NCBI GenBank assembly: GCA_051439505.1
Contig: JBFRWI010000144.1
Span: 1-60,544, forward strand
Source: Hormoscilla sp.
GTDB lineage: Bacteria > Cyanobacteriota > Cyanobacteriia > Cyanobacteriales > Desertifilaceae
Length of the DNA: 60,544 nucleotides
Reading direction: 5' to 3'
Part shown: positions 1 through 6,000 of the stretch, one piece after another
Layout of the letters: each line of letters begins with the position of its first letter
Numbering within the stretch: the stretch's first letter is position 1
Position numbers: made by a program

Positions 1-3000
1 GGAGACCTTACCAACTTTCATACTCACCTCTCATATTCTACACCTCTATGGGCGACCTGTCAACTTTTCGGCAATCCCCATCTATTCTACACCCCAATGC
101 CCGATCGCGTCTAACCGGTTGCCTGTCGGCGCCGCCCGATCGCACCGGATCCAGATGCCAACTTTCCGGCTAGTATATCATATTCTACTCCATTGCTAAG
201 AAATCTGCTGTAGACTGGGCATGAGGGAAGACCCAAATACCCCTCGGACAAGCGAGAGATTACCCAGAAGTTTGCCGCAAATAAAATAACCGTTGATTAG
301 TTAAATTGCCAATATCATTCATCGACTTTGCTACTAACACTTCCCGGTTCGCTAACCACTTTTCAATCTCTTCATGAATTTGGTAACTATTATGTCCGTG
401 AAAATATAGTAGCCCCGTTGGACTCAAACGGTCTAAAAGTGCCTGGATACCTTGAAAGATTTTCTCCGGTGACTTTCGCCAAAAACATTGCAAAGTTCGC
501 CGCGTAATGATAGCATCAAATGGTCCCGGACAGTGCTGGCGCTGGAAAATATCTCCGGTGACCAATTTCACTGATTTGATTTTTTTGATAACCTGTTCTG
601 AGAATTCGGTCTGGGTTTCCTCTTGTTGTTCTTGTTGAAAATAGTCGAAGTTTTTGATATATTTGGGGGTAATCGGAAAATTAGCAAGATATTTGGTGGC
701 TTGAGATGAAATATCCAACCCTGTCACGGAAAATCCCAGATACGCTAGCATGTAAGGTTCAACGGCAATACCATTTCCGGCACAGAGAATGGTTTGGCAT
801 CCTCGCTGTTGCAGTAAGGGGATGAGTATATCGCTTTCATCGAAGAACGGATAAAGATCGTACTCAACTCTATAGTCTGAGGTCATTTGTTTCCAGAAAA
901 CATCCCAACCTTCTACATCAGTTGGGTCATTGGGGAGGGGATACCAATCCAAAACTGTTCTGGCAGCAGCGGCCACATCAAATCCTTCGGGAAATAAGCT
1001 TTTTTGATTGTAGGTAATATAGGCTAAATTTGCTCCATCAAGATTAGCACTGCGCAAGTTTGTATTACTTAAGTTAGCTTGGCGCAATCGCGCTTCTTGT
1101 AAATTAGCTTGCATCATTATCGCCCCACTTAAGTCCGCTTGCAATAATAAGGCTTCCTCTAAACTGGCTTTGGTCAGCAGCGATCGCTTCATATTAGCAC
1201 GAGTTAAATTTGCCCGGTTCAAATTGACTCGATTGAGAATTGTGGAACTGAGATTGGCACTTACAAGTATACTATCACTCAGATCTGCTTCTGTCAAATC
1301 TGCTCTACTTAATACAGAACGGGTTAAGTCAATGCCCGGCAAAGAAACTCCACTTAAATTCAGACCAGTTAAGTCCGATGCTTGAAAATTTCGTTCTCCC
1401 GCTGCGTAGCGACTTAAGAGTTCTTGTTTACTAAGTTTGTTAGGCATTGGTCAATCTCCTCTATAGCTTTTGGTTTTTTTCTCTCGTTACTTTACTGGGG
1501 CAATCAATAGCTAAATGCCCGATCGCCTCCAGTTACCAAGTATTGTTTTCAAAAGTCACGGATATAATTATCTTGCCCTTTTTTCTGTTGTTCTCGATCT
1601 TTCTTAACAAAAATTAAAGAAATATCGGACAAGGGCGATCGCCCCAGGAATGGGCAAAATCTCCAGCACCTGTTTGGTTTCCTACCGTCAACCCAACCTA
1701 CGAGTTTTTCTCCAAGAAAGCCATATTTAAGCCAGCATTACTTAATTGCATGCGGTAGAGTGCTGCCAGTTCCTGACAACCGGACCACACAACCGCTTCC
1801 CCTTGCTTGTGAACCATATTGGCCAACTGCAAAGCCCGATCGCGCTTCATCTCAGGAATATACTTGAGCAAGCAAGCAATCACATAATCAAAGCTATGGA
1901 AATTATCGTTGAGCAGAATCACAAAATAGGAAGAGCGATCGTTATTTGCCGATTCCTCAGAGGGCGGCAAGCATTTAACATAACTAATAGCTTGCGCTAG
2001 ACCGGGATTTAGCTGTACGGTCTGATCGTAATCCGATAGTACACCCTTTAAGTCTCCTAACCTGTAGCGCACCAAACTCCGACCCCCATAGGCTTCCGCT
2101 AGATCGGCATTGAGGGCGATCGCCTGGGTATAATCTTCCAGGGCCCGGGAGTCTTCCCCGATCGCGGCCCGGGCATGAGCCCGTTGCAGATAGCCTTCAG
2201 CCTGGTTAGGATTAAGAAGCAGATTTTCCAAGTAATTTTCGATTGCCAGATCGGCAAAATGTGCTTGCAGCAGGCGGTGAGTAAAGATGTAACCTCCACC
2301 CACCTTTTGTAAAAAACCCCGTTCCGCCCCATAGTCAAGGAAACGGGCGTAGTTCCAGGGAATATCGCCATTGCTATAAAGGACCAGGCGCTGAATAAAA
2401 TGCTTAATGCATGCATCTCCGCCTTTGAGCATTGCCAGAACTAGCCCCACAACTCCTCCAGTAAAGATCGGCAGACTTAAAACATCTGGCAAAAGCACTT
2501 TTCCCATTAGTCCTGCGCCCCCCATCAAGCACAGTAAACCTCCCGTCACTGCAAACACGATCGCATTTTCCAATGACTGCCATATCCCCTCATTCGGAAC
2601 TGTAGTTTTTTCCAGCTTTTCGCTTATCATGCCGCTACATAGTAGCCCACTCACCCCCAGCACTACTCCCCAAAACAGCCCCCCAGTCAGCCCGCCACTG
2701 ACTCCACAAATCAATCCCAAAGGCAGCCATTTTTTCGCATTCCCCCAGGACCATGTTAGCGCTTCCACTGGTTCGATTGGTTCGGTTTTCGTACTCGCTG
2801 CACCTATTATCCCGCCAACTATCCCGATGCTGGGATTCCCTGCTACCAATCCCACTATCCCAGCAATCATCCCCCAAATCAAACCATTAATCCCCTTTAC
2901 CCCGAGATCGTAAGTTCGGTAGGCTTTAGTCTTTTCCTTGCCACTGAATTGCCAAAATGGTATAGTCAACTTATGCTTGGGATCCAGACGCAGCCAACTG

Positions 3001-6000
3001 GGCTGCATCCGCTCGATTAATAGCAGAGTTTGAGACTGCTGTTCCATCCGCCAGGCCAACCCACTCAGCCATTGCAGCGATCGGGATTGCCCATATTGAT
3101 GATATCCCGTCTGGCGGCGGGTAAACATCCGTTGAATATAAGCATTAAATAGATGTTTGCGGGGTTGGGAGTCTCGGGTCGATATATCTGTCACCGACAT
3201 GCCCTCGTAAGCGCGGGCGATCGCCTGAAGCATTACCGGTGTCGTTACCAACTCTTGCAGTTTCTTATCTGACTCAAGCAAGGTATTTAATCCGGCAATT
3301 TCTGCCCCAGCCAGATATTCCCGGACTGCTTCTGTTGTCAGGGGTTGGATGGCGATCGCCCCTTGCAGTTTCAGGCGCTGTGGGAGCATTTCATACTCTC
3401 CCAGGCGCGTCGTTACCACCATTTCCGTGCGTCCGTATTGCTGGCTAAATCGATCGATCGCCTGCACGCATAATGGCATGTAAGTGACTTCATCCAACCC
3501 ATCCAGCAACAGCAACAGTTCCTGAGATGTTATCCAACTGCGAGCAATTTGCTCGGGAACCTGATACTGGGCCTGGAGTTCGGCGACCAACCAATCGGCA
3601 AAAGTTTTTTTCTCCCGCCGCCAAAAAGATGATAGATTAAATATAACTGGAATCGGCTGGTGCATGTCTGCAAGGGCCCGATCGAGCAGGTCCCGGGCCA
3701 TGGACAACAAAATAATGGTCTTGCCAGAACCCGGTTCCCCCAGGATCAGGAGACTTCGCCCCTCTCCCAATTGGTCGAACAAGTCAATTGCCTTTGTGCC
3801 TGGGGGCAATATTTTTCGCGGTGCTTCTGGGGTTTCCCACCCCACCCCGATCGGACCTTCTATAGCATCTAGTCGTTCTGCTAGACTCAGGGAGATTGCT
3901 GGAGAGCAGATTTTTTCCAATACCCCTCTGATCCAGTAATTTCTCACCTTATTAAGTAAAGTCTGGCGGTGGCGGTAACTTTCTCTGACGGAAACTGTTT
4001 CAATCCTCTTTTGCAACTGCGGTAATGCCTGGATCTTCATATTTATCTTACCAGATGGTATTGTATGGCCCTTTTACTGAGGCAGCAGGGATAATCTTAG
4101 TTTGCCCTATTTGGCGTTCTCATCTATCAATATTCAAGAAAGATTAACTGGCTCTGCATCATTTCTGAGAATATCATCCCTATGGCTCACCAACCCCGCA
4201 AGCGCTTTGCTCAACACTGGCTCCGCAGTGACCGGGTGCTCGATCGCATCATCATGGCGGCAGAATTGGACTCCGGCGATCGGATCCTAGAAATCGGTCC
4301 CGGGACCGGTAGTCTGACTCGCAGATTATTACCCCTAGTGGAGTCGGTAGTGGCGGTAGAAATTGACCGAGATCTATGCCGGAAATTAACTTCTTCGCTG
4401 GGGAAGTCGGAAAACTTTCTCCTGCTGCAAGGGGATATCCTCTCTCTGGATTTGTCGGAGCTGCTGAGTTCTTTTCTGTCGAAACAAAACCTAAATAAAG
4501 TTGTTGCCAATATTCCCTATAATATCACGGGTCCGATTCTGGAAAAATTGCTGGGCACAATTGAACATCCTGCTGCTTTACCCTACAATATCATAGTGCT
4601 GCTCCTGCAAAAGGAAGTTGCCCAACGCCTAGTTGCCCGATCGGGCACTAGAGCCTTCGGGGCCCTGTCAGTGCGAGTGCAGTATAATGCTGAATGCGAG
4701 TTAATCTGTACGGTGCCCGCCTCTGCTTTCTACCCGCCTCCCCAGGTAGAGTCAGCAGTAGTGAGGTTGCGTCCCCGACAGTGTTCTCCAGCAGCAGTTG
4801 AGCCCCGGCACCTGGAAATGCTAGTGAAGCTGGGTTTCGCAGCTAAACGCAAAATGCTGCGCAATAATCTCAAATCAGTGGTAGAGAGCGATCGCCTGAT
4901 TGGGTTACTATCAGAATTAGGAGTGAATCCGCAAGCCCGGGCTGAAGACTTGAGTGTCAGTCAGTGGGTATCCTTAAGCAATCTCTTGGTCGCTTCGTAG
5001 TAAACAAGAAGCCTGTTTGCGGGTTTCTCTAGTGACCAGGGTCTCCGGGTGCAACGATAATGCATGGTCAAGTACCAACTGACGCATGACCACACCCTCA
5101 ATTGTACCGGCAGCATTTTGGTCCATTTACATCCTGTGCTACCACGACCCCGTGGAAACTTCAGTAATTATGCTTAATTTAGCTCGTCATCCACCTAGTT
5201 TAAGCTTAAATTTCCATTTTGATCTGCGTGAAAATATTTATTTAGGCTAGATCGAGAACACTCTGAGGGGCACTTATTTACTCAAGCTTACGTAATTATA
5301 CTAATAATTACGCCCCCAGCCACCCACCCCTGGGAGAAAAATTTCATTAAAAATTAAAAAGGGGGTGACACCCCACGCCCCTATCGTGTAAGATTATGGT
5401 AAATAGATGCACCCTGATGGTAGAGGAGAGCCTTATGGCTCTCCTTTTTTTGTCTGTGACTCGCAGTCACCGAACCAGTGATTGATATAATCTGCTCTCA
5501 AACTGAAGCAGAGAAGAAAGCAATATGTCTGACTGGCAAGAGATTAGTGGTGGAGTAACGGCACCCAAGGGATATCAAGCAGCTGGGATTACAGCAGGTC
5601 TGAAGCCATCAGGACAACCGGACTTGGCCTTGATCTGGTCCGAGGTGGATGCGATCGCGGCTGGCGTGTTCACGACGGTGCAAGTAAGGGCGACCTGTGT
5701 AGACTACTGTCGTCAGGTTCTGGATAAAAAACCCAGCGCCAGAGCAATTTTGTGCAATGCAGGCCAGGCGAATGCAGCTACCGGTACCCAAGGCGAACAA
5801 GATGCCATGGAAAGCGCCCAACTACTGGGCGAAGCATTGCACATTCCCCCAGAATCAATATTGCTGGCCTCTACAGGGGTGATTGGCGAACGGATCAAGA
5901 TGGATGCACTGCGCAGTGGCATTCCCCAGTTGGTACAAGCACTGGCAGTAGATGGCTCCGATGCCGCAGCTAAGGCTATTTGTACGACAGATTTGGTCCC

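What a model noticed while it worked through the whole genome (the two positions that open the first line are those of the whole stretch)
1698..4040. NACHT NTPase with glycine-rich membrane segments and a C-terminal ClpS (N-degron reader) domain
g03436 (780 aa) strings together a NACHT P-loop NTPase (aa 96-243), about 160 residues of glycine-rich hydrophobic segments (aa ~380-540), TPR-like helices and, at the very end (aa 702-768), a ClpS domain 58% identical to the Clp-protease adaptor that reads destabilising N-terminal residues; two ordinary clpS genes exist elsewhere. I read it as a membrane-bound STAND switch whose sensor is an N-degron reader, an alarm that fires when new destabilising N-termini (products of a foreign or run-away protease) appear. 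A STAND protein that senses proteolysis through ClpS would be a new sensing principle for NLR-like immunity.
Evidence so far: pfam.tsv: NACHT E 5e-11, ClpS E 5e-14 (HMM 3-68 of 80); Swiss-Prot best hit ClpS of Thermosynechococcus, 58%. Sequence in call 154 shows the G/A/L/V-rich stretch 380-540. Ordinary ClpS: g03724 (93 aa), g04243 (108 aa). Six-frame search of 30 genomes, one per family of Cyanobacteriales: the NACHT+membrane core (aa ~18-600) matches in 20 at 33-59% identity inside frames of 450-1080 aa, but the match runs into the ClpS end (to aa 773) in only 2 (G010 59%, G023 48%); two paralogues of the core in this genome (C68:8502-10301, C42:11664-13463) lack it.
(Added by a program. 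Inside this text positions count along the whole contig: contig position 1 is position 1 of the stretch shown here. "Call 12" and the like, gene names such as g00115 and contig names such as C1 are that model's own, and its searches are not shown. The text may have been shortened before it was handed on; [...] marks where a part breaks off. The agent that wrote the report below was given it as the finding of a first reader that could run no searches.)

Follow-up and report, generated by a model that had tools for sequence, protein, structure and literature searches.

The report
Membrane NACHT protein with ClpS reader
Some cyanobacteria carry a membrane-bound relative of animal immune receptors with a copy of the ClpS module that recognises freshly exposed protein N-termini; it keeps the binding pocket but has mostly lost the protease-docking residues, so it may be a switch that senses protein cleavage.

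Summary
The architecture is real. An intact 780-aa gene encodes a NACHT NTPase (intact Walker A/B, NOD2-like fold), a glycine-rich membrane insert in the winged helix, 2-3 TPRs and a C-terminal ClpS2-derived domain.

The fusion forms one subfamily, found in at least 14 of 300 genomes of the order (11 intact) and in 3 genomes of a second order. Its ClpS part is under purifying selection.

New here: the N-degron pocket is kept (N34+D35+H66 in 23 of 25 fused domains), while the two glutamates that dock E. coli ClpS on ClpA are both kept in only 1 of 25. Free ClpS keep both in 56 of 56 and in 103 of 128 more divergent ones. The free N-terminal tail needed for delivery is absent. Models weakly suggest the domain packs on the protein body. 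It therefore looks like a peptide-end reader, not a Clp adaptor.

Whether it is the input or the output is unresolved. Sister proteins carry N-terminal enzymes and no tail; this subfamily is the reverse. An immune role is not shown: the neighbours are housekeeping genes.

Best reading: an N-terminus-gated membrane STAND switch (0.5). No report of the fusion was found.

The parts
1698..4040 (-). Whole gene, 780 aa: NACHT with membrane insert, TPR, ClpS (P0001)
   Evidence: AlphaFold2 mean pLDDT 83.8, pTM 0.73
3831..3989 (-). aa 18-70, conserved N-terminal helix and strand shared by the whole family; only 17 residues precede it, so there is no N-terminal effector domain
3312..3755 (-). aa 96-243, NACHT nucleotide-binding domain; Walker A aa 101-108 (3717-3740), Walker B aa 176-184 (3489-3515), R212
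   Evidence: Pfam NACHT E 7.6e-11; Walker motifs intact in 24 of 24 fused proteins
3111..3335 (-). aa 236-310, helical domain 1 with invariant P268 (boundaries inferred)
2988..3089 (-). aa 318-351, first part of the winged-helix domain (inferred)
   Evidence: model helix 318-334; model aa 15-625 aligns to NOD2 residues 193-607
2421..2903 (-). aa 380-540, glycine-rich hydrophobic insert; read as three helical hairpins (six membrane segments, inferred)
   Evidence: hydropathy, 21% Gly and 12 GxxxG, model helices
2247..2420 (-). aa 541-598, second part of the winged-helix domain, with the F-x-H motif (F586, H588)
1971..2246 (-). aa 599-690, 2-3 TPR repeats
   Evidence: Pfam TPR hits; 0.8-0.9 A rmsd to TPR structures over 68-80 residues
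1932..1970 (-). aa 691-703, flexible linker in the place of the free N-terminal extension of ordinary ClpS
   Evidence: pLDDT below 50 at aa 697-700; variable length
1707..1931 (-). aa 704-778, ClpS2-derived domain. Pocket N711, D712, N713, H715, F717, V720, H744 (E. coli 34, 35, 36, 38, 40, 43, 66); docking sites E757 (E79, kept) and A760 (E82, lost); new invariant L758
   Evidence: 1.1-1.2 A rmsd over 79 residues to the AtClpS1-peptide complex 7d34

Best explanation
A membrane-anchored NACHT (NLR-like) switch whose input module is a captured copy of ClpS2, kept as a reader of bulky hydrophobic N-termini and released from its Clp-adaptor job. Shown by sequence and models: intact NTPase, membrane insert, TPR, ClpS fold with an intact pocket, docking face degenerate, no free tail. 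Inferred: the ClpS domain packs on the TPR/body; a polypeptide with an exposed Leu, Phe, Tyr (perhaps Val, Ile) N-terminus binds the pocket, and the TPRs may hold the following residues; binding is passed through the helix joining TPR to winged helix, frees nucleotide exchange and drives oligomerisation. Most speculative: the output is the clustered glycine-rich hairpins (membrane permeabilisation) or co-assembly with an enzyme-bearing paralogue such as the kinase-NACHT on C68. The stimulus is proteolysis that creates new N-termini. Whether that serves anti-phage defence or a protein-damage stress response is open (about even).
For: Pocket triad N34+D35+H66 in 23 of 25 fused domains, F40 in 25 of 25, V43 in 24 of 25. 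E79 and E82 both acidic in 1 of 25 fused, against 56 of 56 free ClpS2, 32 of 38 divergent ClpS2-like and 103 of 128 diverse short ClpS, although the last two sets are more divergent than the fused set (52% and 38% vs 62% mean identity). On the core tree of 24 fused proteins E79 needs 5 changes and E82 6, while N34, D35 and F40 need 0 and H66 2. The roles of these residues come from PMC12493166 section 6. Delivery needs a free N-terminal extension in the ClpA channel (PMC9663308 passages). dN/dS of the ClpS part is 0.08-0.35 in the 8 pairs without the IS-broken allele. One origin from ClpS2 is consistent with two trees (SH-aLRT 99). Pocket retained at 38% overall identity in a second order. The domain sits after winged helix and TPR, the usual sensor position. 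TPR+ClpS model has pTM 0.84. Complex job, ClpS against aa 16-692: weak support, score 0.57, best control 0.00, runs agree in 100% of contacts, partner pLDDT 81; the mark was reached by 116 of 157 solved and 2 of 215 mismatched pairs, but at 0.60 or under by only 18 solved pairs and both mismatches.
Against: No binding or activity was measured. The tail is a one-for-one swap: 24 of 24 fused proteins have 6-27 aa before the core and a 181-208 aa tail, while 0 of 97 other family members have a tail over 30 aa and 84 of 97 have 150 aa or more in front, mostly kinase, caspase, CHAT, cyclase or AAA-like. That fits ClpS replacing the effector, a pattern Kibby et al. describe. No output domain is recognisable and pore formation by the insert is a guess. 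D36, an amino-group contact in Caulobacter, is kept in only 7 of 25 (Asn in 16, including this protein); Asn also occurs in AtClpS1 and in 32 of 128 free ClpS. E79/E82 docking is documented for E. coli ClpA; a mycobacterial study proposes other ClpS-ClpC1 surfaces (PMC6274998 passages), and this protein keeps E79. No defence-island context. Broken in 3 of the 14 genomes. G076 has no other copy of the core at E 1e-25, against an obligate helper.
Confidence: 0.5

Rival explanations
1. ClpS is the output or a tether, not the input. The membrane insert senses, as proposed for this family, and the activated ring presents several ClpS pockets that capture or sequester N-degron proteins at the membrane, or tie the NACHT to a host protein with a suitable N-terminus.
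For: Exact complementarity of N-terminal enzyme and C-terminal tail. Kibby et al. list membrane inserts as sensors, C-terminal effectors after repeats, and 'hybrids' with a small tethering domain. Sisters have nothing after the winged helix, so the family does not need a C-terminal sensor.
Against: A binding pocket with no catalytic activity and no Clp docking is a weak effector (inference). Seven of 97 sisters have under 60 aa in front and none has a tail, so the N-terminal enzyme is not obligatory. Weak model support for ClpS packing on the body fits allosteric coupling.
Confidence: 0.22
2. Integrated decoy. The domain is bait for a phage or competitor protein that targets host ClpS2 or mimics an N-degron, as with integrated domains of plant NLRs (analogy recalled); ordinary new N-termini do not fire it.
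For: Derived from a conserved host adaptor by one capture. Pocket face kept, docking face dropped. Patchy distribution and repeated loss.
Against: No such phage protein was identified here. The domain is conserved rather than diversifying: mean identity 0.62, like the NTPase domain at 0.60. No defence context.
Confidence: 0.12
3. Still a Clp adaptor: the domain docks on ClpC and brings the protease to the membrane, to bound substrates or to the NACHT itself (self-turnover, or functional degradation as in NLRP1).
For: E79 is kept in this protein and in 14 of 25; Y84 in 25 of 25. ClpS-ClpC contacts may differ from ClpS-ClpA. Protease genes lie directly downstream in two genomes (M48 in G050, papain-like C1 in G010).
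Against: E79 and E82 together in 1 of 25 against 103 of 128 in more divergent free ClpS. No free N-terminal extension. New invariant Leu at position 80 and loss of P77, H85, R90.
Confidence: 0.11
4. A decaying passenger: a chance fusion whose ClpS part no longer functions.
For: Faster evolution than free ClpS2 (62% vs 85% mean identity). Alleles broken within or just before the ClpS part in G229 and G243, and P0005 truncated within the ClpS domain. dN/dS 0.3-0.5 within the window's genus.
Against: Kept with the same architecture across two orders down to 38% identity. dN/dS 0.08-0.35. Loss is selective for one face, with pocket residues invariant.
Confidence: 0.05

Closest known systems
Bacterial NACHT proteins with membrane regions inserted in the NACHT module (Kibby et al., bioRxiv 10.1101/2022.07.19.500537, sensor class 4)
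   Same: NACHT core with several membrane segments inside the module; cyanobacterial; at least 5020 related clusters.
   Different: No N-terminal enzyme; an added TPR+ClpS tail that none of 97 other top relatives has. ClpS is not mentioned in that paper's main text.
Cyanobacterial NACHT-GUN4 and 'hybrid' NACHTs (same paper, classes 3 and 5)
   Same: A small domain captured from a housekeeping protein sits at the C-terminus as predicted sensor or tether.
   Different: GUN4 reads chlorophyll derivatives; here the captured domain reads protein N-termini and is combined with a membrane insert.
Cyanobacterial ClpS2 adaptor (binds N-terminal Leu, Phe, Tyr, Val, Ile in vitro; PMC7966870)
   Same: Fold, pocket residues and F40 gatekeeper; 57% identical to the genome's own copy. 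The name ClpS2 is my assignment: the other paralogue resembles plant ClpS1.
   Different: No free N-terminal extension; E82 lost here and the E79/E82 pair lost in 24 of 25; fused to a membrane NTPase.
Protease-sensing immunity: CBASS CD-NTases cleaved by phage prohead proteases (bioRxiv 10.64898/2026.03.04.709575, abstract) and NLRP1B (PMC7857732, search listing)
   Same: Proteolysis is the signal, if the best reading holds.
   Different: Those sensors are themselves cut. This one would bind the cut ends of other proteins, whatever protease made them.
Avs/bNACHT anti-phage STAND receptors (PMC13581612)
   Same: STAND NTPase with a TPR-containing C-terminus.
   Different: Avs sensors wrap folded phage proteins with large repeat domains and carry enzyme effectors. 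Here there are only 2-3 TPRs, no enzyme, and only weak P-loop-region PADLOC hits.
L12/ClpS-domain insertions in vWA-MoxR conflict systems of Bacteroidetes (PMC7159879)
   Same: A ClpS-fold domain used inside a predicted conflict protein.
   Different: Described there as a multimerising ribosomal L12/ClpS domain in vWA proteins, not an N-degron reader on a NACHT.

Membership tests
NACHT-class STAND NTPase (bacterial NLR-related) | Walker A and NACHT-type Walker B intact | tested here: met
   24 of 24 fused proteins; Pfam NACHT above cut-off
NACHT-class STAND NTPase (bacterial NLR-related) | Helical domain and winged helix after the nucleotide-binding domain | tested here: met
   Top Foldseek hits NOD2 and NLRC4; VIA Z 15.6, rmsd 4.7 A over 343 residues, model aa 15-625; F586 invariant, H588 in 19 of 24 fused and 58 of 58 others
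NACHT-class STAND NTPase (bacterial NLR-related) | N-terminal effector domain | tested here: not met
   6-27 aa before the core in 24 of 24. Kibby et al. note exceptions
NACHT-class STAND NTPase (bacterial NLR-related) | Ligand- and ATP-dependent oligomerisation | not testable with these tools
   needs biochemistry
NACHT with membrane insert (Kibby class 4) | Several membrane segments inside the NACHT module | tested here: met
   aa 380-540 lie between the two parts of the winged helix; segment count inferred
Anti-phage defence system (Avs/bNACHT) | Location among defence genes | tested here: not met
   13 of 150 neighbouring ORFs hit PADLOC at 1e-10; I read 11 as cross-hits (rsmA x3, kinases x2, TnpB-like x2, reverse transcriptase, ABC ATPase, cyclase, exonuclease); 2 partial hits lie near the IS-flanked truncated copy in G243. 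No control set was run
Anti-phage defence system (Avs/bNACHT) | Match to a known defence family model | tested here: inconclusive
   only weak hits over the P-loop region
Anti-phage defence system (Avs/bNACHT) | Protects against phage | not testable with these tools
   needs a phage challenge
ClpS N-degron adaptor | ClpS core fold | tested here: met
   1.1-1.2 A over 79 residues to 7d34
ClpS N-degron adaptor | Amino-group and hydrophobic pocket residues | tested here: met
   N711, D712, F717, V720, H744; D36 position is Asn as in AtClpS1
ClpS N-degron adaptor | Helix-3 acidic pair E79/E82 for chaperone N-domain docking | tested here: not met
   E757 kept, position 82 is Ala760; both acidic in 1 of 25. 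Role shown for E. coli ClpA only
ClpS N-degron adaptor | Free unstructured N-terminal extension that enters the chaperone channel | tested here: not met
   domain is preceded by about 700 residues
ClpS N-degron adaptor | Measured binding of N-degron peptides | not testable with these tools
   needs a binding assay

The most novel reading that the evidence does not exclude
An NLR-like receptor that detects proteolysis indirectly and generically. A captured ClpS2 pocket binds the new hydrophobic N-termini left by phage maturation proteases or runaway host proteases, the NACHT oligomerises, and glycine-rich hairpins built into its winged helix open a membrane pore. Sensor, switch and executioner would be one chain with no enzyme effector.
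Probability: 0.22. Interest if true: 0.9.

Novelty: new variant of a known kind. Interest (0 to 1): 0.7.

Why it matters
It would add a kind of input to STAND/NLR receptors: the cut end of any protein, rather than a folded phage protein or the receptor's own cleavage. Even without an immune role, it shows a ClpS domain uncoupled from Clp proteolysis in bacteria, and gives a clean handle (pocket mutants, N-degron reporters) on a family of at least 5020 membrane NACHT clusters for which I found no functional study. Settling whether ClpS is input or output also tells whether the membrane insert of that family is a sensor or an effector.

Tried and rejected
Frameshift or assembly artefact: rejected; same architecture in 11 intact genes of the order, 2 complete and 1 contig-truncated gene of another order, and 24 full-length protein clusters.

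Viral contigs: 1 TPR-only locus among 26 pattern matches; no fusion found.

ESM Atlas with aa 310-605: only unnamed hypothetical clusters; the insert was not folded alone, so nothing is claimed about its fold.

Expression: two short contigs of a relative in one metatranscriptome; no evidence either way.

Earlier findings of the scan: none.

Protease neighbours as a conserved partner: M48 and AIM24 genes near the gene in G050, G229 and G243, a C1 peptidase in G010, a CPBP gene in G023 and G057; they differ by lineage and the AIM24-M48 cluster is not beside the gene in this genome, so not counted as support.

Alignment A2 misplaced the free ClpS rows and was discarded. Two dN/dS pairs with G229 (0.88, 0.94) were dropped for the ClpS part because an IS interrupts it there. 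The careful ClpS tree did not finish; the quick tree on 75 columns was used. Paper searches for E79/K84 terms returned nothing. ClpS-ClpC docking was not modelled: the single complex job went to the intramolecular question.

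
Full report
OBSERVATION. The minus strand at 1698-4040 holds one open frame of 780 aa. Pfam finds NACHT at aa 96-243, TPR at aa 614-683 and ClpS at aa 702-768. 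Aa 380-540 are hydrophobic, 21% glycine, with 12 GxxxG motifs. The genome has two free clpS genes (57% and 34% identical to the domain) and two paralogues of the core without ClpS; one has an N-terminal Ser/Thr-kinase-like region, the other no recognisable enzyme (read from the sequences). The nearest named relative is P0022, labelled Hormoscilla sp. by NCBI (88%, truncated).

ANATOMY. AlphaFold2 on an 82-sequence alignment gave pLDDT 83.8 and pTM 0.73. The top Foldseek hits are NOD2 and NLRC4. VIA aligns model aa 15-625 to NOD2 residues 193-607 (Z 15.6, rmsd 4.7 A, 343 residues), so the NACHT fold resumes after the hydrophobic stretch. I therefore place the insert inside the winged helix, whose F-x-H motif is at aa 586-588. 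Six membrane segments in three hairpins is my reading of the model helices; it would leave NTPase and ClpS on the same side. Walker A and B are intact in 24 of 24 fused proteins. The ClpS part superposes on the Arabidopsis ClpS1-peptide complex at 1.1-1.2 A over 79 residues.

DISTRIBUTION. In 300 other genomes of the order the TPR+ClpS tail marked the fusion in 14 (families f1, f10, f14, f16, f19, f23, f29); this is a lower bound because 562 matches were not listed. Eleven carry an intact gene; G054 is frameshifted, G229 has an ISL3 element in the ClpS part, and G243 has one frameshifted and one IS-flanked truncated copy. A class-wide sample of 300 added 3 of 3 genomes of one genus in another family outside the order, 38-40% identical, pocket intact. 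The 25 fused ClpS domains fall on one side of a branch (SH-aLRT 99, quick tree, 75 columns) among free ClpS2-type sequences, and the 24 fused cores separate from 58 other cores (SH-aLRT 99). One capture event is the simplest reading; the trees do not prove it. dN/dS of the ClpS part is 0.08-0.35 in 8 of 10 pairs, the other two involving the IS-broken allele; pairs are not independent and deep ones are near saturation.

THE DECISIVE PATTERN. Section 6 of PMC12493166 lists the pocket residues of Caulobacter ClpS and states that E. coli E79, E82 and K84 contact the ClpA N-domain; E. coli numbering was transferred through the PDB alignment. Among 25 fused domains N34, D35 and F40 are invariant, V43 is kept in 24 and H66 in 23. 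E79 is kept in 14, E82 in 5, both acidic in 1. Controls: 56 of 56 free ClpS2 from the order keep both; so do 32 of 38 divergent ClpS2-like and 103 of 128 diverse short ClpS (128 of 141 short representatives covered the region), sets more divergent than the fused one. On the core tree the two glutamate sites change 5 and 6 times and the three invariant pocket sites never. Delivery to ClpA also needs a free N-terminal extension threaded into the channel (PMC9663308), which a C-terminal domain lacks. Against this: D36 is mostly Asn; this protein keeps E79; and a mycobacterial study proposes different ClpS-ClpC1 contacts (PMC6274998). A new invariant Leu at position 80, a pTM of 0.84 for the TPR+ClpS model (best of five; the others had pLDDT 85-63) and a weak pass in the complex job (0.57, best control 0.00, runs agree 100%, partner pLDDT 81; passes at 0.60 or under came from 18 of 157 solved pairs and from both of the 2 of 215 mismatches that passed) suggest the domain packs on the protein. 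No interface was returned, so I cannot say that the old docking face is the one used.

INPUT OR OUTPUT. The core belongs to a family of at least 5020 clusters whose top members carry kinase, caspase, CHAT, cyclase or AAA-like domains. None of 97 non-fused top hits has a tail over 30 aa, 84 have 150 aa or more in front, and 7 have under 60; all 24 fused proteins have 6-27 aa in front and a 181-208 aa tail. Kibby et al. allow both readings: C-terminal small sensor domains such as GUN4, membrane inserts as sensors, tethering 'hybrids', and effectors moved behind repeats. I favour input because of the position, because a non-catalytic pocket without Clp docking is a poor effector, and because near-bare cores exist; this is inference. 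Nine of 10 fusion-bearing genomes tested have other copies of the core, G076 none at E 1e-25, so a helper is possible but not obligatory. The winged-helix His is replaced in 5 of 24 fused and 0 of 58 other proteins, which I cannot explain.

IMMUNITY OR NOT. The gene sits among housekeeping genes (rsmA, chlB, pgl, FHA proteins, sugar ABC transporters, AIM24-M48; named from sequence). Thirteen of 150 neighbouring ORFs hit PADLOC, nearly all cross-hits by my reading; no control set was run. Patchy distribution, repeated breakage and the sisters' enzymes fit a conflict role; a conserved sensor and quiet neighbourhoods fit a stress sensor. The data do not decide.

LITERATURE. Searches: NACHT+ClpS, whole word, 19 papers; ClpS+STAND NTPase+domain architecture, 1 paper; ClpS+cyanobacteri+N-degron+fused, 4; N-degron/anti-phage/protease/sensor/ClpS from 2022, 22 papers, 20 listed. 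None of the listings showed this fusion. Most subscription papers are outside the library. The plant integrated-decoy analogy and the labels HD1 and winged helix are recalled.

VERDICT. A real, old, single-origin subfamily of a known kind of membrane NACHT, with a ClpS2 domain that has the signature of a reader cut loose from Clp. It is a member of the NACHT class, works like ClpS in binding (inferred) but fails two defining tests of a ClpS adaptor, and is not shown to be a defence system. Best reading 0.5; full protease-alarm-and-pore reading 0.22; interest 0.7.

Noticed in passing
P0072 (one search hit, 573 aa): Three tandem ClpS-like domains fused to an ADP-ribosyltransferase domain (Pfam ClpS E 8e-23, ART E 3e-12); single-member cluster on a 2.2-kb contig. 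Another ClpS-plus-enzyme fusion.
   Followed up: partly
P0120 (one search hit, 489 aa): N-terminal ClpS domain fused to a membrane protein with a weak DUF58 hit; single-member cluster.
   Followed up: partly
window 260-1447 (-): Pentapeptide-repeat domain fused to a SAM-dependent methyltransferase-like domain; lies where relatives in the same genus have AIM24 and M48 genes, with similarity breaking near window 1560.
   Followed up: partly
window 7350-10247 (-): 965-aa ORF that reads like a membrane acyltransferase-type N-terminus fused to PEP-utilising enzyme domains; judged from the sequence only.
   Followed up: no
L031:6951-10361 and L032: G243 holds a second, N-terminally truncated copy of the gene flanked by two parts of an IS that is also found in L032; the two copies are only 89% identical, so not a fresh duplication.
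   Followed up: partly
L039:6023-7144 and L040:10491-11303: A papain-like C1 peptidase gene overlaps the end of the fusion gene by one base in G010, and an M48 peptidase gene starts 4 bases after it in G050.
   Followed up: partly
L186:7864-8703 and L188:4820-5653: In the second order the fusion gene lies tail-to-tail with a gene that reads like an SPFH/stomatin protein (from sequence only).
   Followed up: no
P0041, P0199, P0200, P0201, P0044 group; P0001 aa 588: The winged-helix His, invariant in 58 sisters, is Asp in 4 and Asn in 1 of 24 fused proteins; in other NLRs such changes are activating (recalled).
   Followed up: no
window 1672-1707: Short stretch just past the stop codon is covered at high depth by 32-33-base contigs in run X2, suggesting a small repeated element.
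   Followed up: no
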